From positions 1-13,625 of IMG/VR virus record IMGVR_UViG_2681813234_000008: DNA of 13,625 nt; one strand, given 5' to 3'. This DNA comes from a virus. Taxonomy: Duplodnaviria > Heunggongvirae > Uroviricota > Caudoviricetes. The notes beneath the pieces are model-generated. The model was not told where the DNA came from, ran no database searches, and saw only the letters and a list, made by a program, of their open reading frames with translations. The stretch's first letter is position 1. Each line of letters opens with the position of its first letter. Made by a program: the position numbers and the translations under genes. Positions 75 through 13,625 of this stretch are shown piece after piece.

Positions 75-1361
75 TTACCCCGCTTTCTTATGGGGCATGC
101 ATGGGACACTTTCAGATAGTCTTCTGTTAAGAAGTTCTATCTGTTCGTGATTGTTGTCTTTCATCCATGCTCCGTAAACATTGAATACCATTTGTGCGTT
201 TGTGTGGCCCATCTGGCTTGCGATAAAACTAGGATTAGCTCCTGCGGCAAGTGACCAGCATGCATAGGTATGCCTGGATTGATACGATTTTCTGTGTCTC
301 AGACCTGCGCGTTTTAAGATACTTGTCCATGACTCCCTGATGGAGTCAACCTTATAGTGCGGTCCGGAAAACTGCCGCTGTTTTATTACCTGAGGACTAA
401 AAACAAAAGTGCATTTATGCACAGTACTTCTCCCATATTCCCTCTGCTTTACCTCTACAGAATGCTGTTTTCCAAGCATGGTCATTTCCGCTTGGCTTTT
501 AAGAGCATCAATAGCTGGTTGAACTAGATGAATCGTTCTTCCGGTACCAGCATCAGTTTTTGGTGGAGTGAATTCGCCTAGTTTTGTATAATTCCGGCGG
601 ATGGTTATAGTCCTCGCTTTAAGGTCTATATCTTCCCAGGCCAGTGATACCAGCTCCCCGTGACGAATACCTGTGTATACAGCGATAATCCACAGGTTTT
701 TTGTTTGTTGATGACGGCAAGCCTCAATAAAACGAATAAATTCGTCACGGGTGAGGGGATCTGGTTCTATCCTGGACTTTTTTAATGGTGTCAGACCGTT
801 AAATGGATTTCCTGATGTATAACCATTATCTGTTGCAAATTGAAACATTCCAGCTATGGTTGTCATATAGTAGTTTACTGTGACCACTGAGCGTCCTTTT
901 ATGGAAGAAATTTTTCCGTTAGAAAGCTTTTGATAACCGGTCAACAGATCTCTCCTTACGAAAAGCAAATCCTCTTTTGTTACAGATGAAACCAGTCTTT
1001 TTTCACCTAACATTGGCAACATGTTTTTAATTACTGACTGGTAACGGTTAAGTGCATTTGCACAAATCTCTATTTTCTTCAGTTCAAGCCATCTTTCCGA
1101 AAGTGCTTTAATGGTTATCTCTCTTTTCCCCAGACCAAAGTGTTTCAGGTTAGGGGACTCAGGGAACTGTGCTGCATAGTCGAAACTCCCCATTCTTATT
1201 GCAAAACAAACGGAAGTGCGGAGGTCACCTGCGATTTTCCGGTTTTTGGCGGTGTCAGGAACACCGAGGTTTTCTCTGACACGTTTGCCGTTATAGTGAA
1301 ACCATATGCGGAGTGATCCGCCATGATTTTCAACGCCTGTTGGGTATGATGTATTACTCAT
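75..1361 (-). CDS. int: Tyrosine recombinase (phage integrase)
   Basis: 428-aa ORF with C-terminal catalytic signature (RHTYA, GHTNAQMVFNVYGAW with putative catalytic Tyr) and an N-terminal arm-type region (GSLRIWFHYNGKRVRE). Strong SD (GGAGG) 5 nt upstream of the ATG at 1361. Confidence 0.85.
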   Translation of the reverse strand: MSNTSYPTGVENHGGSLRIWFHYNGKRVRENLGVPDTAKNRKIAGDLRTSVCFAIRMGSFDYAAQFPESPNLKHFGLGKREITIKALSERWLELKKIEICANALNRYQSVIKNMLPMLGEKRLVSSVTKEDLLFVRRDLLTGYQKLSNGKISSIKGRSVVTVNYYMTTIAGMFQFATDNGYTSGNPFNGLTPLKKSRIEPDPLTRDEFIRFIEACRHQQTKNLWIIAVYTGIRHGELVSLAWEDIDLKARTITIRRNYTKLGEFTPPKTDAGTGRTIHLVQPAIDALKSQAEMTMLGKQHSVEVKQREYGRSTVHKCTFVFSPQVIKQRQFSGPHYKVDSIRESWTSILKRAGLRHRKSYQSRHTYACWSLAAGANPSFIASQMGHTNAQMVFNVYGAWMKDNNHEQIELLNRRLSESVPCMPHKKAG

Positions 1362-1394: not shown

Positions 1395-1649
1395 TTAACC
1401 GGAACTTGCATTTTTAACACCTGGTTGTTTCTGATTTTCGATCCAGCGCATAATTTCCTCTATGTTGTATACGCATTCACTGTTGCTCTTCGGAATTCCA
1501 TCGACAGCGTAATGTCGATATTCTTTCCCCTGTAGCCATGATTTTTTCCTGGCTCGCTCAATGGTGCCTGGTTTTAGCCCTGTCGAAGCAATGAGGGTGC
1601 TTTCTGTACACCATTTACTTGGTGTTATTTGATAGATGATTGTCTGCAT
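1395..1649 (-). CDS. xis: Excisionase-like small DNA-binding protein
   Basis: 84-aa basic ORF 33 nt upstream of int on the same strand, with SD GAGGT. Position and size fit Xis/AlpA-type directionality factors; family assignment by eye only. Confidence 0.55.
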   Translation of the reverse strand: MQTIIYQITPSKWCTESTLIASTGLKPGTIERARKKSWLQGKEYRHYAVDGIPKSNSECVYNIEEIMRWIENQKQPGVKNASSG

Positions 1650-2492: not shown

Positions 2493-3320
2493 TTATTTAA
2501 CCTGGATAAATGGCGTATTGGCGCCGCTGGTCATGTATTGCGGCAGTGTGCCGTTCCATTTATTGATGGCTTCCAGTTCCATAACTCCAGGGTTCTGGCG
2601 CAGAGCTTCACCGCGTAAACGAATAGCATCGGCTTCGGCCTGGGCTTTTGTGCGAATCGCATCAGCCTGTCCGGCAGCTTCCGCGCGCAGCATGTTGGCT
2701 TCCGCTTCGCGCTGTTTTACTTCCTGCTCGCGTTGCAGGGTTTTCTGGTTTGCCGTGACTTTGGCATTAATGCTGTCGATAACGGTTGGTGGGTACTCCG
2801 GTTTACCTACATATGAGAGGCTCACTACCTGAATACCGATGGGTGTCATTTCTGCCTGAATGTCTTTAAGAGCAGCATCCAGCAGTTCAGACTTGCCGCC
2901 GTCGATAAATTTGTCGGTGGTCATTTTGCTGGCCAGTCGGTTGAGTGCGTCGGCGATCTTCTGGCGCAGGTCGGTGTCGGTAATGTCATCCACGCCTTTG
3001 CGGTAAGTCTGAAACACCGTGGTAACTTTGGATGGATCAACTTTGTAGGCCACGCCAATGTGATAGCCGATGGTTGTACCGTCACTCATCTGGAAACTGA
3101 ACGGTTCATCGTAGGTCTTCATTTGTTTGAAGGTGGGGAAGATATAAACTTCAGTATTCCAGCCAGTCCAGTAGCGACCAACACCGACCACCTCACCGAC
3201 GCCTTTGTCGTCGCCCAGTTTATTTACCTTGATGCCAACATTACCTGGTTCAACGCGATCGCAACCGACAAGGCCAATAGTCGGCAGAACAATGGCTAAA
3301 GCAAAAATAATTTTTTTCAT
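2493..3320 (-). CDS. SPFH/Band-7 (HflK/HflC-like) lipoprotein, predicted inner-membrane anchored
   Basis: N-terminal signal peptide with lipobox LVGC followed by Asp at +2 (inner-membrane retention rule). Core resembles the HflK/HflC pattern (VEPGNVGIKVNKLG ... IGIQVVSLSYVGKPEYPPTV), followed by an Ala/Gln/Glu-rich coiled-coil tail. SD AAGGA; ATGA overlap with the upstream small gene. Confidence 0.7.
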   Translation of the reverse strand: MKKIIFALAIVLPTIGLVGCDRVEPGNVGIKVNKLGDDKGVGEVVGVGRYWTGWNTEVYIFPTFKQMKTYDEPFSFQMSDGTTIGYHIGVAYKVDPSKVTTVFQTYRKGVDDITDTDLRQKIADALNRLASKMTTDKFIDGGKSELLDAALKDIQAEMTPIGIQVVSLSYVGKPEYPPTVIDSINAKVTANQKTLQREQEVKQREAEANMLRAEAAGQADAIRTKAQAEADAIRLRGEALRQNPGVMELEAINKWNGTLPQYMTSGANTPFIQVK

Positions 3321-3505
3321 CTTTTATCCTTAGTGAAAGAAAGACCCTTGTAAATGGCATAAATGCAGGGCGGGGTCAGAAACGCCAGTGCAAAGCCAGA
3401 AATAACTGCTATCGTATCCTTCATGGATATAAGGAACGGAACGAGTAATCCGTAAATGCATGCGATAATTGCCAGTAAAATTACTATTGTGAAATACAGT
3501 CTCAT
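3317..3505 (-). CDS. Small two-helix membrane protein (62 aa), coupled to the SPFH gene
   Basis: Two hydrophobic stretches (YFTIVILLAIIACIYGLLVPFLI and IAVISGFALAFLTPPCIYAIY). Its stop overlaps the SPFH start as ATGA. Weak SD. Confidence 0.55.
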   Translation of the reverse strand: MRLYFTIVILLAIIACIYGLLVPFLISMKDTIAVISGFALAFLTPPCIYAIYKGLSFTKDKR

Positions 3506-3681: not shown

Positions 3682-4263
3682 TTAATGTGTCACTGGCGCT
3701 TCTGACATACCATGAGTATTCAGGTCGTTAATCATTTCATCCAGAAGGAGTTCAAGCCCTTCGCGCCCCATAGCAGAGAGAATGAAACCATTATCAGGAT
3801 CTGCGATGAGCATTTTTTGATAGAGAAACAGAACTCGCCCGATGCCTTCAGTTTCGCCATATTTTTCAATAAATCCCCATTCGACATGGTTTTGCAGGGC
3901 AATGCGAAGTGGTCCTGGGTATATACTTATGCAACCATGTTTCCCCTTGTAAATAACTGCGCGATCTGTCGTCCCGTTATCGTTAGGGATATCAATAGTG
4001 CCGTTCTTGTCTTCCTCTTCACTGATAAACTTCATCACATACAGCCAGCGCCACTGAGCAACCTTCAGATCGACTGAAAATCTTCCCAGCAATCCGGCAT
4101 CATCAGCTTCGGCAAGACATTGCATGATTCTTAAACCGTGCCAGTATGGATTATCGAATTCGCCATCATTAAGCCGCTGTACGGCCTCAATATAATCAAT
4201 GGTTTTATTACCAATTTTTATGCCATGTGGCGTTACTTCTGGTCGGAACTCTGAATGATTCAT
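3682..4263 (-). CDS. Hypothetical protein (193 aa), distal gene of a coupled pair
   Basis: Track ORF 3682..4338, trimmed to the ATG at 4263 (MNHSEFRPEV...), which overlaps the upstream gene stop as ATGA. Very AT-rich; no recognisable domain. Confidence 0.6.
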   Translation of the reverse strand: MNHSEFRPEVTPHGIKIGNKTIDYIEAVQRLNDGEFDNPYWHGLRIMQCLAEADDAGLLGRFSVDLKVAQWRWLYVMKFISEEEDKNGTIDIPNDNGTTDRAVIYKGKHGCISIYPGPLRIALQNHVEWGFIEKYGETEGIGRVLFLYQKMLIADPDNGFILSAMGREGLELLLDEMINDLNTHGMSEAPVTH

Positions 4264-4448
4264 AATGTTTGCTCCTTTGCTGGTGGAATAATCGTGTAGC
4301 CAGCTCTTTTTGCCATCCACAGAAATGTATCCATGCAACCAACGAATTCATTATCCAACAGATGTTTTGAGTAAATTACTTCACCATTTTCAATAGTTAG
4401 CAACACTCTTACTTTTTTATGTGTTATGTTTTGTTGTTTTTCTTTCAT
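4260..4448 (-). CDS. Hypothetical small protein (62 aa), proximal gene of a coupled pair
   Basis: Track ORF with GGGAGA SD about 8 nt upstream of the ATG; AT-rich codon usage. Stop overlaps the start of the 193-aa gene. Confidence 0.5.
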   Translation of the reverse strand: MKEKQQNITHKKVRVLLTIENGEVIYSKHLLDNEFVGCMDTFLWMAKRAGYTIIPPAKEQTL

Positions 4449-4644
4449 TTATTTATCTCCCATATGCTTTGCGCAAATACAGGTTGGCTATATGAAGATA
4501 AGAATCTCCATGTTGTGCAATGAGGCAGGCAGTTTTATACGATGCCTTATGTTTCAGGAAAGTCATAACATAATCTCCTGCGAATAAAGGTTGCAACAAT
4601 CCCCGGCGATAAAACCGTAATAAACATTCAGGGAATATTTATTG

Positions 4645-5010
4645 TTATTGCGCTAATTCTTTTTCGGCAGCAGATTTTGCATATTCACATGCAAAATTCA
4701 GAATTTCGCTGCCAAGTGTTTTTGTTTCGTGATTACTGGACATATGTAATACCTGTGTTGCATGCAATAAATGATAAACATTTACCGCAAATGAATCAGG
4801 CTCCAGACAAATGCCTTCATAATCATCTTGTTGTGAGGTTGTTTCTGTCATTGCTCCTGAAGTGCATGCGAGCCTGTTTTTGACAATTCTCTTTCCTCTA
4901 ATCACTATATCGGCAACATCTATTGCCTTTACAACCTCCGGGAGAAGGTCCGGGTTTGTATAATCAAAGTCATTAACATGGAGAACAGTTATGTTTTCGA
5001 ACTTTTTCAT
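4645..5010 (-). CDS. Hypothetical protein (121 aa)
   Basis: Track ORF with GAGGAA SD upstream of the ATG at 5010. It lies downstream of an HTH gene on the repressor strand. No recognisable domain. Confidence 0.55.
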   Translation of the reverse strand: MKKFENITVLHVNDFDYTNPDLLPEVVKAIDVADIVIRGKRIVKNRLACTSGAMTETTSQQDDYEGICLEPDSFAVNVYHLLHATQVLHMSSNHETKTLGSEILNFACEYAKSAAEKELAQ

Positions 5011-5138
5011 GGCTTCCTCAGCTGACTTATATGTTCTGCTATATAGCGAGTCTCAGAAGTGTTTTCATATTGAGACTGTTTCCTCAATGATTGATAAAAA
5101 TGTTCGCATGTACCTTGAGGGGCGAAGCGGCGATTATG

Positions 5139-5657
5139 TCACCATTGGTATTGGTTCTTCCGTAGAAGAGCTTCGCGAGATAAGGAGCAAACTTGTTGAG
5201 ATGCGTCATGGTGTTGCTGCTCCTCACTTTTTGGTTGCTCCGGAGGAGTAACCTCACCAGTTAACAGCCACATCGGATCGCAGCCAAGAATATTTGCCAG
5301 TGGGATAAGCATACTGATAGTTGGTTCATACTTTCCGCTCTCCCACTGGATGATAATTTCTTCATCGAGATCGAGCAGCCTGGCGAGTTCGGCGGTTGTT
5401 AAGCCGCAAGCTTCGCGTTGAGTGCGAAGGCGGGAACTAATAGTCACCATAGCAAGGCGACGGCAAGATTTAGTGCGCTCTTGCCTTCTTTGTGAAAAAT
5501 CTTCTTGTGCAAGAGAAGATGCCAGTTCAGCTGAAATTAGAAGTAATGAATATGAAACATCTCGCTCTTTCTCGGTACCTGAAGACAACAAGCAGGCTGC
5601 GTTAAGGGATGCAGAAAGCTTGTTGATGTCATCTATAGCGTCAATAAAATCGATCAT
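5139..5657 (-). CDS. XRE-family helix-turn-helix protein (172 aa) with extra N-terminal region
   Basis: Central HTH_3-like segment (GLTTAELARLLDLDEEIIIQWESGKYEPTISMLIPLANILGCDPMWLLTGE). GGAG lies upstream of the ATG at 5657; the alternative start at M70 (5450) lacks an SD. Confidence 0.6.
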   Translation of the reverse strand: MIDFIDAIDDINKLSASLNAACLLSSGTEKERDVSYSLLLISAELASSLAQEDFSQRRQERTKSCRRLAMVTISSRLRTQREACGLTTAELARLLDLDEEIIIQWESGKYEPTISMLIPLANILGCDPMWLLTGEVTPPEQPKSEEQQHHDASQQVCSLSREALLRKNQYQW

Positions 5658-5697
5658 TTCTCAAAGCTCCAATAATGCGCTGTGAGGCAATGATTCA

Positions 5698-5728
5698 TCA
5701 ATTATAATTGATAGTCAAGTATGATTTA
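5698..5728. promoter_or_regulatory. Operator-like 14-bp perfect palindrome TCAATTATAATTGA (5698-5711) plus adjacent half-site TCAAGTA (5715-5721)
   Basis: Palindrome read directly from the sequence. It sits between the repressor stop and the start of the 172-aa HTH gene and matches the site family in the repressor/cro intergenic region. Confidence 0.45.
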
Positions 5729-6211
5729 GTCTTTTTGATTGAGTTTTTGCGTGATTAGCAAGATGTTTTTTGAGTGTTCTTCCAGAAGATTTTTTGCAAA
5801 ATCCAACACCTTTACCCTCTCTTTTGTGGGTAAATTCGCAAATATTTCAAATAAATAGCTTGTATCCTCAATGATTGTTGGATCTATAGATTCAATAATA
5901 CCTCGTATCAGTTTGTTGCTCATTGAATCAAAAAGAGTTTCTCCATTCTCCCGGGTAAGTGTGTACTTAGGTTTTTCTGTGTTTCCATTTAAAAGCCACT
6001 GTACGTCGCACTGTAAGAGTTCTGATAATTTCAATAGCTTATCGCTAGTTATGCTTGTCTTTCCTTTCTCCCACAAAGATACAGCAGCCATTGATACCCC
6101 CATTGCTTGTGCCAGCTTTAATTGACTTAAACCAAGTTCTTTTCTGCGTGACAGAATCCTGTGCCCCATTGAGAGTGGGGAAGACTGACATGACTTTAGT
6201 TTTGTATCCAT
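5726..6211 (-). CDS. Prophage repressor, XRE-family HTH, no recognisable S24 peptidase domain (CI analog)
   Basis: N-terminal HTH (LGLSQLKLAQAMGVSMAAVSLWEKGKTSITSDKLLKLSELLQCDVQWLLNG). Transcribed divergently from the Cro-like gene. Track ORF trimmed to the ATG at 6211, which has a GAGGG SD. The C-terminal 90 aa show no Ser/Lys autopeptidase motif. Confidence 0.7.
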   Translation of the reverse strand: MDTKLKSCQSSPLSMGHRILSRRKELGLSQLKLAQAMGVSMAAVSLWEKGKTSITSDKLLKLSELLQCDVQWLLNGNTEKPKYTLTRENGETLFDSMSNKLIRGIIESIDPTIIEDTSYLFEIFANLPTKERVKVLDFAKNLLEEHSKNILLITQKLNQKD

Positions 6212-6291
6212 ATTGCCCTCAAGTATACTTGATAGTAAGATTGTGTTGTAATTCCTGTTGCTAAGCTTAATCAATTAATGTTGAGGTCTCA
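6212..6291. promoter_or_regulatory. Divergent immunity promoter/operator region with two 14-bp sites, TCAAGTATACTTGA (6219-6232) and TCAATTAATGTTGA (6271-6284)
   Basis: The first site is a perfect palindrome and the second is a 12/14 match to the 5698 palindrome. Each abuts the SD of the gene on its side. -10-like hexamers (TATACT, TAAGAT) are present, but promoters are not mapped. Confidence 0.5.
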
Positions 6292-6531
6292 ATGATAAAG
6301 ATTAGTGCAATTAAGTTTTATGGTTCGCAAAGGGCGATTGCTCAATCACTGGGGATTAGCGAGCAAGCTGTTTCTCAATGGCCAGAACTCATTCCTAAAG
6401 GTGCAGCTCTGGAGCTTGAGAAACTCACTGATGGCGCTTTGAAGTGCGATCTGAACCTGTACAAGAACCGCTCGCGCAAAAACAAGCGTGAATTGCACCC
6501 AAGCTTAGCGCACACGGGGGAGGAGAAGTGA
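6292..6531 (+). CDS. Cro/YdaS-like small DNA-binding regulator
   Basis: 79-aa ORF with the YdaS/Cro-type motif GSQRAIAQSLGISEQAVSQW ... PKGAALELEKLTDGALKCD. Divergent from the repressor; GAGG SD. Confidence 0.7.
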   Translation: MIKISAIKFYGSQRAIAQSLGISEQAVSQWPELIPKGAALELEKLTDGALKCDLNLYKNRSRKNKRELHPSLAHTGEEK

Positions 6532-11149: not shown

Positions 11150-11520
11150 TGCGCTTAGAGTGTGTTTTACCTTACCCACCGACGGTGAACACCTACTGGC
11201 GTCGTCGTGGCAGCACATATTTTGTATCAAAAGCAGGGGAGCGTTATCGCCGGGATGTGGCGCTTATTGTTCGCCAGCAGCGACTGAAATTAAACCTGTC
11301 CGGAAGGCTGGCAATAAAAATTATTGCAGAGCCGCCGGATAAGCGCCGTCGTGACCTGGACAATATTCTGAAAGCACCACTGGATGCGCTGACGCATGCC
11401 GGACTACTTATAGACGACGAGCAGTTTGATGAAATCAATATTGTGCGCGGACTGCCTGTTCCTGGTGGGCGGTTGGGCGTGAAGATTTACGAAATTACAG
11501 GTGATAACGATGGTGCGTGA
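11149..11520 (+). CDS. rusA: Holliday-junction resolvase RusA family
   Basis: Matches the RusA pattern ([40 protein letters not shown]), including the acidic catalytic residues. Typical Nin-region position. Confidence 0.8.
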
Positions 11521-11896
11521 TATTCAGCAGGTTATGGAGCGGTGGGGATCATGGGCTGCGAACAATCACGAAGATGTGTCATGGGCGTCAATCGCTGCTG
11601 GTTTTAAAGGATTAATCCCGCCGAAAGTGAAATCACGCCCTCAGTGTTCTGATGATGATGCAATGATAATTTGTGGCTGTATGGCCCGGTTGAACAAGAA
11701 AAATCAGGATTTGCACGATTTGTTGGTGGATTATTACGTAGGTGGAATGACTTTTATGGGGTTGGCACGAAAGCATGGGTGTTCGGATACCTGTATTGGC
11801 AAGCGCCTGCAGAAAGCGGAAGGGGTTATTGATGGCATGTTGATGATGCTTGATATCCGACTAGAGATGGACAGATACGTAGAACGAATCATGTAG
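11510..11896 (+). CDS. Late-gene antiterminator Q (phage 82/DLP12 QuuD-like family)
   Basis: Motifs [21 protein letters not shown] and Cys cluster [16 protein letters not shown]. Immediately followed by a promoter-plus-terminator unit. Start placed at the ATG at 11510, which has an AGGTGA SD. Confidence 0.7.
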
Positions 11897-11900
11897 GAGC

Positions 11901-11930
11901 TTGACCAGACACATTGTCCGGGGCTATATT
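11901..11930 (+). promoter_or_regulatory. Candidate late promoter pR' (-35 TTGACC, 18-bp spacer, -10 TATATT)
   Basis: Near-consensus sigma-70 hexamers 5 nt after the Q stop, followed by short hairpins and an intrinsic terminator about 75 nt downstream. Confidence 0.45.
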
Positions 11931-11990
11931 CCTCACGCGCCAGCAAAATCTGGCGTCGGGATTGGCGTCCCGGATGAAAAAGGCGACAAC

Positions 11991-12012
11991 AGACGCGCCA
12001 GCGTCTTTTTTG
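11991..12012 (+). terminator. Intrinsic terminator (tR'-like)
   Basis: Stem AGACGC / GCGTCT with loop GCCA, followed by TTTTTT. Confidence 0.5.
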
Positions 12013-12169
12013 TTGTCGTTTGCACTGTCACATCTCAATGGTGGGCTGTGTGGGGGCGGAGCGATCCGCGCCGGTTCCTTTTTCCCGGTTACGCCAACCC
12101 TGCACAGTTCACCACCATACTGATTGGCGTCAGCAGTGGTGATGATTCACATAGAAAAAGGATCATCCT

Positions 12170-12658
12170 ATGGCTATTCAAATCTCAGTTGAAACTCTTT
12201 CCCCGATCACCCATAACCAAATCCCTGTCATTACTACCGAGCTTTTGGCACAACTTTATGGCACCGAAACTAATAACATCAAAGTGAACTATACACGCAA
12301 TGCCGAGCGTTTTGTTTGTGGGAAACACTACTTCAAATTGGAAGGGGCTGAGTTGCGGGAATTTAAGAACAAGGTTACTCAAAGTAACTTAGTTGCACCG
12401 CGTACAAAGCACCTCATCCTCTGGACAGAACGCGGAGCAGCCCGTCACGCCAAAATGCTGGAAACCGATCAGGCGTGGGAAGTGTTCGAAAAACTGGAAG
12501 ACTGTTATTTCAGCCAAAAACAACCACCAGCAGCACAAAACACCCCAACCCAAAATGATGGATGCGCATTACTGATCCACTTCGATAAACACGGTCAGGT
12601 CGACTTCACGGAAAAACTACCCGCCGATGCGATGGTATGCACTCTGGAACGGTTTTAA
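12170..12658 (+). CDS. ORF6N-domain protein (antirepressor-like N-terminal domain family)
   Basis: Pattern LAQLYGTETNNIKVNYTRNAERFVCGKHYFKLEGAELREFKN ... LILWTERGAARHAKMLETDQAW is typical of ORF6N/KilA-N-like phage proteins. AGGA SD 7 nt upstream. Confidence 0.65.
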   Translation: MAIQISVETLSPITHNQIPVITTELLAQLYGTETNNIKVNYTRNAERFVCGKHYFKLEGAELREFKNKVTQSNLVAPRTKHLILWTERGAARHAKMLETDQAWEVFEKLEDCYFSQKQPPAAQNTPTQNDGCALLIHFDKHGQVDFTEKLPADAMVCTLERF

Positions 12659-12734
12659 AAATTTTCCCCGAACGCTTTACGATCGTAAAAAGTTGAATAT
12701 CCTGTTAAGAGTGGTTACTACGCCAAACAGCTTA

Positions 12735-12760
12735 AACCCGCCACTGAGCGGGTTTTTTTA
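12735..12760 (+). terminator. Intrinsic terminator
   Basis: AACCCGC / GCGGGTT stem with short loop, followed by TTTTTTT; lies 77 nt after the ORF6N gene stop. Confidence 0.6.
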
Positions 12761-12881
12761 TGCCTGAAAAACGGTACAGGACGTTAAACGCGCTGGTGGT
12801 TGCGAATACTGGTCTTTCGGCTTGTATTTTTGTAAATCGATATATACTTATCTTGTGACCAGTAATGTCAGGGCAATTGAT

Positions 12882-13625
12882 ATGAATGAAGCTTGTTCTG
12901 TTGTTTTTGTTCATTCCCCGTTTGTTGTGCTCTTTGAAGGAAAAGAGCTCTCTCTGGAAAGTGGTAGTGCACTTCTTGTCAGGGGGGGAGCTGGATCGTT
13001 ATTGCCCTTTTCGGAATGTTTTCGGCGAATAAGTCTCAGTGAATCGACAATTATCCGTTACCTGTTGTGTGGAGACGAAAAACAGGATGTAGTTTTAGTC
13101 CGGCAAATACCACGATATCTTTGCGTGAGTTTTCCCAAGGCAGAATTGATGGGCATCCTGATTGATTATCTTTGTGAGGAAAAGATTCATACGGACAATT
13201 TAGCGGAAATGCTTTCCTTTTCGTGTCTGGCGTTTTTCTCATCAGAGAAAATGTTTTCGTCGTTTCTGACCGCGTGTATTGGCAATATTAGTGACAGGCT
13301 TAGTGCATTGTTTCGTACGGACATTGCAGCAAACTGGACTCTGAGAGATGTGTCTTCGCGGTTATGTATCAGTGAAAGTTTGTTAAAAAAAAGACTGAAA
13401 GAAGAAGGCACCTGTTTCAGTGAGTTGTTGCTTACAGAGAGAATGAGAATGGCAGCAATGCTGTTGAATCAATCTCGTTGCGCCATCAACAGAATCGCTG
13501 CTCAGTGTGGTTATAATTTTACATCTTATTTTATCAGCGTATTCAGGAGTTATTTTGGTGTTACACCGGCAGGTTACAGGATGGCTGCATTCAATGAGAT
13601 GAGTTTAAGTGTTACTCAAGAATAA
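12882..13625 (+). CDS. AraC/XylS-family transcriptional regulator, AppY/YdeO/GadX-like
   Basis: C-terminal AraC HTH (ESLLKKRLKEEGTCFSELLLTERMRMAAMLL ... CGYNFTSYFISVFRSYFGVTPAGY). N-terminus MNEACSVVFV resembles AppY as recalled from memory. Track start is a TTG at 12822; the ATG at 12882 is preferred. AT-rich gene. Confidence 0.8.
   Translation: MNEACSVVFVHSPFVVLFEGKELSLESGSALLVRGGAGSLLPFSECFRRISLSESTIIRYLLCGDEKQDVVLVRQIPRYLCVSFPKAELMGILIDYLCEEKIHTDNLAEMLSFSCLAFFSSEKMFSSFLTACIGNISDRLSALFRTDIAANWTLRDVSSRLCISESLLKKRLKEEGTCFSELLLTERMRMAAMLLNQSRCAINRIAAQCGYNFTSYFISVFRSYFGVTPAGYRMAAFNEMSLSVTQE

What the first reader, a model, noticed from the sequence alone, without database searches (positions are those of the whole stretch)
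5726..6211. Repressor appears to lack a LexA-type autopeptidase domain, implying non-canonical induction
The HTH is followed by about 90 residues with no Ser-Lys dyad pattern typical of CI/LexA self-cleavage. Induction may therefore need an antirepressor or another signal. An ORF6N-domain protein, a family often found in antirepressors, is encoded at 12170-12658 and is a candidate partner.
Basis: inference. Interest (0 to 1): 0.42.

Follow-up and report, generated by a model that had tools for sequence, protein, structure and literature searches.

The report
Non-cleavable DicA-like prophage immunity repressor

Summary
Observation confirmed. The gene at 5726-6211 (-) encodes a 161-aa protein with one HTH_3 domain (aa 21-73) and an 88-aa tail. 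The tail shows no Peptidase_S24 signal by Pfam or hhalign, has no Ala-Gly or Cys-Gly site, and has no real homologue among 1.84 billion representative proteins. Three exact TCAA-N6-TTGA palindromes, the only ones in the window, flank the gene, and a P22_Cro-type gene diverges from it, so it is the immunity repressor. Its N-domain is 43% identical to DicA, and its architecture matches the DicA/GtgR class, whose members are inactivated by small antirepressors (Lemire 2011; Ragunathan 2023).

Interpretation partly supported. ORF 4260-4448 (-) falls in phrog_340 together with the proven antirepressors FsoA and Rem. The ORF6N family also carries an FsoA/Rem-like C-terminal module (hhalign 92%). In this window that module has lost 24 codons and lies behind Q, a late promoter and a terminator. 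The same repressor occurs without the ORF6N gene in two other prophage contexts. No LexA box exists in the window or in a complete 42-kb relative, so both modules sit downstream of the repressor. They fit a latch or crosstalk role better than an SOS trigger. This is a new member of a known kind, of modest interest.

The parts
5726..6211 (-). Immunity repressor, 161 aa: HTH_3 N-domain (aa 21-73) plus an 88-aa non-S24 tail
   Evidence: N-domain resembles the P22 C2 N-domain, E 3e-11; 43% identical to DicA; no S24; tail is an orphan
6219..6232 (.). Operator-like palindrome TCAAGTATACTTGA (OR side, overlaps the repressor's ribosome-binding region)
   Evidence: 3 exact matches in the window against 0.45 expected, all flanking the repressor gene
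6271..6284 (.). Operator-like palindrome TCAATTAATGTTGA (OR side, just upstream of cro)
5698..5711 (.). Operator-like palindrome TCAATTATAATTGA (OL side, inside the spacer of the pL-like promoter)
5715..5728 (.). Second OL-side operator-like site TCAAGTATGATTTA (1 mismatch, overlaps the -35)
   Evidence: inferred
5690..5718 (-). pL-like promoter TTGACT-17-AATCAT that drives the leftward early operon
   Evidence: consensus match only
6292..6531 (+). Cro analogue (P22_Cro / YdaS family), divergent from the repressor
   Evidence: PF14549, E 1e-16
5139..5657 (-). Second HTH protein (172 aa), first gene after pL. Its 5' part (5257-5657) travels with the immunity cassette
4260..4448 (-). 62-aa FsoA/Rem-family (phrog_340) small antirepressor homologue in the leftward early operon
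11501..11896 (+). Late antiterminator Q
   Evidence: PF06530, E 6e-52
11901..11930 (+). pR'-like late promoter TTGACC-18-TATATT
   Evidence: 10 of 12 consensus positions
11991..12016 (+). tR'-like intrinsic terminator between the late promoter and the ORF6N gene
12170..12658 (+). ORF6N-domain protein (162 aa) with a truncated FsoA/Rem-like C-terminal module (aa ~126-162)
12734..12765 (+). Intrinsic terminator closing the ORF6N unit

Best explanation
The 161-aa protein is the CI-type immunity repressor of a phiP27-like lambdoid prophage integrated beside mlrA. It belongs to the short, non-self-cleaving DicA/GtgR class.

Shown or directly supported:
- It has an N-terminal HTH that resembles the P22 C2 and DicA DNA-binding domains.
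- It is flanked on both sides by 14-bp TCAA-N6-TTGA palindromes. These overlap a leftward pL-like promoter and the region in front of a divergent cro.
- It has no S24 domain.

Inferred:
- The repressor binds these operators as a dimer held together by its helical tail.
- It is removed from DNA by stoichiometric binding of a small antirepressor, not by RecA-stimulated autocleavage.
- The antirepressor is of the FsoA/Rem type. The window encodes this module twice: an intact 62-aa stand-alone gene (4260-4448) in the pL operon, and a C-terminally truncated copy fused to an ORF6N DNA-binding domain (12170-12658) behind Q, pR' and tR'.

Both copies lie downstream of promoters that the repressor silences, directly or through Q. 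No LexA box is present. They therefore cannot start induction. They would act after a first leak of pL/pR, as a positive-feedback latch that titrates the remaining repressor, and as trans-acting inducers of co-resident prophages that carry DicA/GtgR-type repressors.

The initiating event must come from elsewhere. Candidates are an antirepressor made by another prophage, stochastic Cro takeover, or an unknown non-SOS signal.
For: - Repressor identity and switch anatomy.
- No S24.
- DicA-class resemblance: BLASTP against DicA gives 43% identity, E 9e-18. hhalign against a DicA/GtgR profile gives E 1e-15 and extends to the LF..LP..E tail motif.
- Sister prophages carry 218-229-aa S24-type repressors in the same slot, so this is a cassette swap.
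- ORF 4260-4448 hits phrog_340 at E 3e-24. FsoA (E 1e-26) and Rem (E 4e-21) hit the same family.
- FsoA was identified as Fels-1 STM0898.2n from the published primers. The window ORF is 54% identical to its core.
- FsoA inactivates GtgR and Rem inactivates DicA, both shown experimentally (PMC3121763, PMC10448788).
- The 62-aa gene is intact in all 8 retrieved contigs that carry the identical repressor.
- ORF6N C-domain against the FsoA/Rem family: hhalign 91.8%, E 7e-7. The reciprocal HMM picks the 62-aa proteins as the only non-self hits among 852 ORFs.
- No LexA box: the best score in the window and in a rebuilt 42,235-nt relative is 25 of 34. Gifsy-2 and Fels-1 boxes score 31, and 12 E. coli boxes recalled from memory score 26-32.
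Against: - No interaction was tested, and antirepressor specificity is narrow and unpredictable. GtgR, for example, ignores GfoA and GfhA (PMC3121763).
- The 62-aa gene belongs to the left-arm backbone. It is 98-100% identical in sister prophages whose repressors are S24-type. It therefore does not co-vary with this immunity cassette and, like FsoA in Fels-1, may have nothing to do with its own prophage's repressor.
- Similarity of the repressor tail to DicA/GtgR is weak when tested alone (hhalign E 0.006, probability 6.5%, 24 columns).
- The 62-aa protein shows no pairwise BLAST similarity to GftA or Rem. The link rests on profiles.
- The helical prediction for the tail comes from a low-confidence model.
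- A repressor that is neutralised by a gene in its own early operon is a plausible circuit but an unproven one.
Confidence: 0.5

Rival explanations
1. One reading: the ORF6N protein at 12170-12658 is the cognate antirepressor whose synthesis triggers induction.
For: - ORF6N domain and PHROG 'anti-repressor' families match strongly.
- The family's C-terminal domain is homologous to FsoA/Rem.
- The gene is present in 5 of 6 near-clonal copies of this prophage that cover the region.
Against: - A 72-bp deletion removes 24 codons. These include most of the helix that the AF2 model of the homologous 62-aa protein places at aa 39-48.
- The gene lies after Q, a pR'-like promoter and a terminator, and no LexA box or other independent promoter was found.
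- The repressor occurs without it in L011 (another Q plus the Kiwa defence system) and in the 52F4/IMG-VR type.
- The same gene is split by an IS in UTAK-5.
Confidence: 0.1
2. The tail is a cryptic or degenerate S24 peptidase and the repressor is still cleaved in a RecA-dependent way.
For: A 'DSM' tripeptide (S96) followed by K134 at LexA-like spacing.
Against: - No S24 hit at E<=1.
- hhalign probability is 0.7%.
- No Ala-Gly or Cys-Gly site, and only 88 residues where the fold needs about 120.
- Composition is helical and Gly-poor.
Confidence: 0.03
3. Gifsy-type wiring: a LexA-repressed antirepressor operon of this same prophage lies outside the window and couples induction to SOS.
For: This is the documented solution for GfoR, GfhR and GtgR, for 186 and for N15. 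The window shows only 13.6 kb of the prophage.
Against: A complete 42,235-nt viral contig with a 99%-identical repressor has no site scoring above 25 of 34. Its single CTGT-N8-ACAG match lies in tail genes with a GC-rich spacer. That contig is a mosaic relative and differs from this prophage to the right of cro, so the late half of this exact prophage was not examined.
Confidence: 0.12
4. No dedicated antirepressor is needed. The repressor is intrinsically unstable or is removed by host proteases or stress, and the Cro analogue flips the switch. This was reported for Rem-independent, DicC-dependent derepression of the Qin DicA switch.
For: PMC10448788 reports about 1% spontaneous switching and urea or heat induction of DicA-controlled promoters without Rem. 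No SOS link was found here.
Against: This does not explain the retention of two FsoA/Rem-type modules. There are no data on the stability of this protein.
Confidence: 0.2
5. The neighbouring 172-aa HTH protein (5139-5657) is the real or a co-equal immunity determinant, and the 161-aa protein has another role.
For: Its 5' part co-transfers with the cassette (window 5257-6516 matches 52F4 at 97.5%). It carries an HTH_3 domain.
Against: The operators and the divergent cro bracket the 161-aa gene, not the HTH2 gene. HTH2 homologues also accompany S24-type repressors.
Confidence: 0.05

Closest known systems
DicA / DicC / Rem of the Qin cryptic prophage (E. coli K-12)
   Same: - A short HTH_3 repressor without an S24 domain; the N-domains are 43% identical.
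- A divergent Cro-like gene.
- An LF..LP..E helix motif in the tail.
- The antirepressor Rem falls in the same PHROG (phrog_340) as the window's 62-aa protein.
   Different: - The tail is 26 aa longer and is otherwise unrelated (an orphan).
- The Cro analogue is P22_Cro type.
- rem lies in the rightward nin region of Qin, whereas the homologue here lies in the leftward operon.
Gifsy repressors GtgR/GfoR/GfhR with antirepressors GftA/GfoA/GfhA, and Fels-1 FsoA (Lemire et al. 2011)
   Same: - Non-cleaved repressors of about 140 aa that are inactivated by binding of 60-80-aa proteins.
- The window's 62-aa protein is a positional and sequence homologue of FsoA: left operon, 54% core identity.
- The left-arm and early gene order resembles Fels-1.
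   Different: - The Gifsy antirepressors sit in a LexA-controlled dinI operon. No LexA box is found here.
- Fels-1 itself has an S24 repressor, and FsoA acts on a foreign repressor.
Lambda CI / P22 C2 / LexA (S24 self-cleaving repressors)
   Same: The N-terminal HTH matches P22 C2 at E 3e-11. The position in the genome and the divergent cro/operator layout are the same.
   Different: There is no S24 domain, no cleavage site and no detectable dyad context.
Coliphage 186 CI-Tum and N15 CB-AntC (from the literature cited in PMC3121763)
   Same: The repressor is inactivated by antirepressor binding rather than by cleavage.
   Different: Those antirepressors are LexA-controlled and are unrelated in sequence to phrog_340. 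The repressor families also differ.
P22 Ant and PHROG 'anti-repressor' ORF6N/KilAC proteins
   Same: The ORF6N protein matches phrog_2379, phrog_1760 and phrog_4792, all labelled anti-repressor.
   Different: The label is inherited by annotation. I found no paper that tests an ORF6N protein as an antirepressor. The allele here is truncated.

Membership tests
LexA/CI-type self-cleaving repressors (Peptidase_S24) | C-terminal Peptidase_S24 domain detectable by profile | tested here: not met
   Pfam at E<=1 gives none. hhalign of the tail against S24 repressors gives 0.7% probability.
LexA/CI-type self-cleaving repressors (Peptidase_S24) | Ala-Gly or Cys-Gly scissile bond in the linker | tested here: not met
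   No AG or CG dipeptide anywhere in the 161 aa.
LexA/CI-type self-cleaving repressors (Peptidase_S24) | Ser-Lys dyad in a G-D/N-S-M ... K context | tested here: not met
   Only a bare 'DSM' (S96) and K134. There is no GDSM and no profile support.
LexA/CI-type self-cleaving repressors (Peptidase_S24) | RecA-stimulated autocleavage | not testable with these tools
   Needs a western blot after mitomycin C.
DicA/GtgR-class short non-cleavable prophage repressors | HTH_3 N-domain homologous to DicA/GtgR and a total length of about 135-160 aa | tested here: met
   161 aa; 43% identical to DicA, E 9e-18; hhalign E 1e-15.
DicA/GtgR-class short non-cleavable prophage repressors | Immunity-region layout: divergent cro-type gene, with operators on both sides | tested here: met
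DicA/GtgR-class short non-cleavable prophage repressors | Homologous C-terminal (dimerisation) segment | tested here: inconclusive
   A 24-column LF..LP..E motif; hhalign E 0.006 but probability 6.5%. The rest of the tail is an orphan.
DicA/GtgR-class short non-cleavable prophage repressors | Not cleaved on induction; displaced from DNA by antirepressor binding | not testable with these tools
   Biochemistry is required.
FsoA/Rem small antirepressors (phrog_340), for ORF 4260-4448 | Profile membership together with the experimentally proven members | tested here: met
   phrog_340: window ORF E 3e-24, FsoA E 1e-26, Rem E 4e-21. FsoA identity was fixed by the published primers.
FsoA/Rem small antirepressors (phrog_340), for ORF 4260-4448 | Small (60-85 aa) protein with the conserved IENG.V ... 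DTF ... AG core | tested here: met
   Alignments A5 and A7. The AF2 model has pLDDT 84 and shows a beta-hairpin plus a helix.
FsoA/Rem small antirepressors (phrog_340), for ORF 4260-4448 | Binds and inactivates a DicA/GtgR-type repressor | not testable with these tools
   No multimer prediction or experiment was available.
ORF6N-domain proteins, for ORF 12170-12658 | PF10543 match above the gathering score | tested here: met
   77.2 bits against a cutoff of 27.8.
ORF6N + FsoA/Rem-like fusion 'anti-repressors' | Complete C-terminal FsoA/Rem-like module | tested here: not met
   Family-level homology is supported, but this allele lacks the last 24 codons.
Gifsy/186/N15-type SOS-coupled antirepression | LexA box in front of the antirepressor operon | tested here: not met
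   No site scores above 25 of 34 in the window or in the 42-kb relative; controls score 26-32.

The most novel reading that the evidence does not exclude
This prophage type has no SOS sensor of its own. A non-cleavable repressor sits upstream of two FsoA/Rem-type antirepressor modules, one free and one tethered to an ORF6N DNA-binding domain. The prophage would then be a 'listener': it is induced only in trans by antirepressors of co-resident prophages, or by a non-SOS cue. It then amplifies and rebroadcasts the signal to other DicA/GtgR-type prophages. ORF6N 'anti-repressors' in general would owe their activity to this small C-terminal module.
Probability: 0.2. Interest if true: 0.55.

Novelty: new member of a known kind. 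Interest (0 to 1): 0.3.

Why it matters
Whether prophages at the mlrA (yehV) and yecE sites of E. coli, both classic Stx-phage sites, respond to DNA-damaging antibiotics depends on how their repressors are inactivated.

A repressor that cannot self-cleave, in a prophage with no LexA box, predicts induction that depends on which other prophages are present. This is the crosstalk first shown in Salmonella. Here it adds a widespread E. coli example: the identical protein is indexed in 96 blocks of the assembly collection.

The link between the C-terminal domain of ORF6N 'anti-repressors' and the proven FsoA/Rem module gives a testable reason for an annotation that has so far only been inherited.

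Tried and rejected
- Word-indexed and exhaustive searches for homologues of the repressor tail found only near-identical copies and repeat artefacts.
- AF2 of the repressor without an alignment gave pLDDT 44. It was used only as a weak hint of helicity.
- PDB sequence search matched only the HTH.
- Pairwise BLASTP of the 62-aa protein against GftA, Rem and the ORF6N protein gave nothing significant. The relationships hold only at profile level.
- Foldseek of the 62-aa model against PDB and BFVD found no significant fold match.
- I first read the gene-call table as showing ORF6N absent from L009, L012 and L013. tblastn showed that the CDS is present there, so I dropped the '2 of 6' claim.
- Two 1-mismatch LexA-like sites were rejected as coding sequence with a broken CAG core: 4467-4482, inside a small ORF upstream of the 62-aa gene, and 3482-3501, inside codons 2-8 of a membrane-protein gene.
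- 52F4, a complete-genome carrier of the cassette, turned out to be a defective prophage and was uninformative for the late genes.
- CP057485 is not in the annotated collection.
- The literature search for tested ORF6N antirepressors found none.

Full report
**What the window is.** The window holds the left arm and early region of a phiP27-like lambdoid prophage inserted beside mlrA (yehV).

The gene order is as follows:
- integrase, 75-1361 (-)
- excisionase, 1395-1649 (-)
- a leftward early operon
- a second HTH gene, 5139-5657 (-)
- the gene in question, 5726-6211 (-)
- a P22_Cro-family gene, 6292-6531 (+)
- helicase and primase
- RusA
- antiterminator Q, 11501-11896
- the ORF6N gene, 12170-12658
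- an AraC-family gene that runs off the end

The window is 100% identical over all 13,625 bases to GCA_001575535.1 contig LOOM01000003.1.

**The observation.** The ORF from the ATG at 6211 encodes 161 aa. A GAGGG lies five bases upstream, and PGAP uses the same start in a 99%-identical copy.

- Pfam at E<=1 gives only HTH families (HTH_3, aa 21-73) and no Peptidase_S24.
- The PDB sequence search matches only the N-domain; the best hit is the P22 C2 N-terminal domain at E 3e-11.
- As a direct test for a cryptic S24 fold, I aligned three S24-bearing repressors that occupy the same slot in sister prophages (SE11, UTAK-5, Fels-1) and compared profiles. Only aa 14-81 align (96% probability). The tail alone gives 0.7%.
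- The protein has no AG, CG or GDSM. It does contain 'DSM' (S96) and K134 at LexA-like spacing. I regard this as coincidence. The tail is 88 aa, Gly-poor, Leu/Glu/Lys/Ile-rich, and helical in a low-confidence model.
- An exhaustive phmmer search of the tail against 1.84 billion representatives returned only its own cluster and three long proteins. These proved to be translated tandem repeats.

**It is the immunity repressor.** The window contains three exact TCAA-N6-TTGA palindromes, against 0.45 expected; only 2 of 200 shuffles reach three. All three lie in the two short intergenic regions that flank the gene:
- 5698-5711 on the left, with a one-mismatch neighbour at 5715-5728. Both overlap a pL-like promoter, TTGACT-17-AATCAT.
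- 6219-6232 and 6271-6284 on the right, between the repressor and cro.

In sister prophages with the same backbone, this slot holds 218-229-aa 'LexA family/XRE' repressors. The short repressor therefore arrived by a cassette swap. The cassette (window 5257-6516) is 97.5% identical in strain 52F4 on an otherwise different prophage.

**Which kind of repressor.** The best phage-database relatives are DicA-like proteins.
- Against K-12 DicA, the N-domain is 43% identical (E 9e-18).
- In a multiple alignment, the end of the tail (LFEIFANLPTKERVKVLDF...) lines up with LLELFNALPESEQ of DicA and LLSLFNQLPEAEKLRV of Gifsy-2 GtgR.
- hhalign of the whole protein against a DicA/GtgR profile gives E 1e-15 and runs through this motif. 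The tail alone gives E 0.006 and 6.5% probability, so tail homology is unproven.

Lemire et al. 2011 (PMC3121763) showed that GfoR, GfhR and GtgR are not cleaved. They are stripped from DNA by small antirepressors. The authors argued that repressors of about 150 aa, explicitly including DicA and RacR, are candidates for the same control. Ragunathan et al. 2023 (PMC10448788) showed that Rem is the antirepressor of DicA.

**A better candidate partner.** ORF 4260-4448 (-), 62 aa, is annotated 'hypothetical' everywhere. It is 54% identical over its core to Fels-1 STM0898.2n (E 9e-11).

The primers in Table S1 of Lemire et al. encode MNSQQMM... and ...EAGIRFEEISNVG, which identifies STM0898.2n as FsoA. 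The window protein (E 3e-24), FsoA (E 1e-26) and Rem (E 4e-21) all fall in phrog_340, which PHROGs lists as 'unknown function'. A 24-member family profile also aligns with GftA (hhalign E 2e-4, 45% probability), although pairwise BLAST sees nothing.

With a 37-sequence alignment, AF2 gives pLDDT 84 and a beta-hairpin (aa 14-30) plus a helix (aa 39-48). No solved or viral predicted structure resembles it.

Like fsoA, the gene lies in the leftward early operon. It is intact in all eight retrieved contigs that carry the identical repressor. It is also 98-100% identical in sister prophages with S24 repressors. It therefore belongs to the backbone, not the cassette. As with FsoA in Fels-1, it may target foreign repressors.

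**The ORF6N protein.** The domain call is right (PF10543, E 1e-21; phrog_2379, E 3e-78).

Eighty relatives from IMG/VR show that the usual form is 186-187 aa and ends ...CTLERFKFYLEQRGWIVARKEQLVERLMRL. The window allele stops at ...CTLERF because a 72-bp in-frame deletion between short direct repeats removed the last 24 codons.

The C-terminal domain of the full-length family is homologous to the FsoA/Rem family (hhalign 91.8%, E 7e-7, 50 columns). An HMM of that domain, searched against 852 ORFs, hits only the 62-aa proteins besides itself (E 0.005 and 0.009). Both proteins also hit phrog_25059. These 'anti-repressors' thus look like an ORF6N DNA-binding domain fused to a FsoA/Rem module.

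In this window, however:
- The module lacks most of its helix.
- The gene follows Q, a strong late-promoter-like site (11901-11930) and a terminator (11991-12006), and is closed by another terminator. It should therefore be silent until Q acts.
- The repressor occurs without the gene in L011, where another Q and the Kiwa genes KwaA/KwaB take its place, and in the 52F4/IMG-VR prophage type.
- In UTAK-5 the gene is split by ISEc23.

**No SOS link.** There is no exact CTGT-N8-ACAG in the window, and one-mismatch hits occur at chance frequency.

A weighted 20-mer score gives at most 25 of 34 in the window. The Gifsy-2 dinI box and a Fels-1 box score 31, and twelve E. coli boxes recalled from memory score 26-32.

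I rebuilt a complete 42,235-nt viral contig carrying a 99%-identical repressor from four overlapping loci with no conflicts. Its best score is also 25. Its single CTGT-N8-ACAG lies in tail genes. That contig differs from this prophage to the right of cro, so the late half of this exact prophage remains unexamined.

**Mechanism proposed.**
- Shown: an S24-less HTH repressor bracketed by operator-like palindromes; an intact FsoA/Rem-family gene in the pL operon; a truncated second module behind Q; no LexA box.
- Inferred: the repressor is inactivated by antirepressor binding. Because both modules are downstream of repressed promoters, they act as a latch after a first leak and as trans-inducers of other DicA/GtgR-type prophages. 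The initiating signal comes from another prophage's antirepressor, from stochastic Cro takeover, or from an unknown cue.

I put about 0.5 on this package. The rivals are:
- intrinsic instability or host proteolysis: 0.2
- a LexA-controlled antirepressor in the unseen late region: 0.12
- ORF6N as the trigger: 0.1
- HTH2 as the real repressor: 0.05
- cryptic S24: 0.03

**Verdict.** This is a correct observation of a repressor type that has been known since 2011 and is common in E. coli. It is a new member of a known kind. The added value is the unannotated FsoA/Rem homologue, the FsoA/Rem-like module in ORF6N 'anti-repressors', and the absence of any SOS box. Interest is modest (0.3).

Noticed in passing
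window 12560-12660; L030, L036: The ORF6N allele here is a 72-bp in-frame deletion variant (162 aa) of a 186-187-aa protein. The deletion lies between short direct repeats (CGGTT(T/C)AAA and CGGCTTTAAA). The truncated allele is common, with at least 13 identical or near-identical copies in IMG/VR.
   Followed up: yes
L011 3286-4694 (equivalent to window ~11150-12800): In one otherwise 99.4%-identical prophage, the Q-ORF6N block is replaced by a different Q plus the Kiwa defence genes KwaA/KwaB. The space between Q and the AraC and lysis genes therefore acts as a cargo or defence hotspot.
   Followed up: partly
L003 19340-22227 (UTAK-5): The same ORF6N gene is interrupted by an IS66-family element (ISEc23) in a sister prophage.
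   Followed up: no
window 4991-5251 (+) and 5139-5657 (-): Two convergent ORFs overlap by 113 nt, and both have very strong PHROG matches (phrog_6104, E 2e-49; phrog_4739, E 2e-55). Some gene callers call both.
   Followed up: no
window 5256/5257: The left boundary of the exchangeable immunity cassette falls inside the second HTH gene. Its N-terminal ~135 codons travel with the repressor and cro, while its 3' end belongs to the backbone.
   Followed up: partly
L007 5796-5815 (Fels-1): A near-consensus LexA box, CACTGTATTTATTTACAGTA (score 31 of 34), lies inside the coding sequence of the Fels-1 repressor gene fsoR.
   Followed up: no
L009 and L012 3925-4311 (window 11901-12287): Some assemblies call a 128-aa ORF ('Phage_ASH weak') across the late promoter and terminator region instead of the ORF6N gene, although the ORF6N CDS is 100% present. 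Gene tables alone give a false absence.
   Followed up: yes
window 12822-13625: An AraC-family regulator (247 aa in relatives) sits as cargo between the late promoter region and the holin and endolysin genes.
   Followed up: no
window 2493-3505: The leftward operon contains an SPFH/Band_7 protein (275 aa) overlapping a 62-aa predicted membrane protein. This pair is conserved across all the sister prophages seen.
   Followed up: no
P0006-P0008: The apparent distant 'homologues' of the repressor tail (E down to 5e-21) are translations of ~52-codon tandem repeats. Their scores are summed weak repeat matches, so they are artefacts.
   Followed up: yes
L009, L013, L015 and L001 versus L010, L012, L014, L016: The identical immunity cassette and left arm occur at two different attachment sites, with two integrase types: beside mlrA, and beside the DUF72 gene next to yecN-cmoA. 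This shows recent mobility or recombination of the module.
   Followed up: partly
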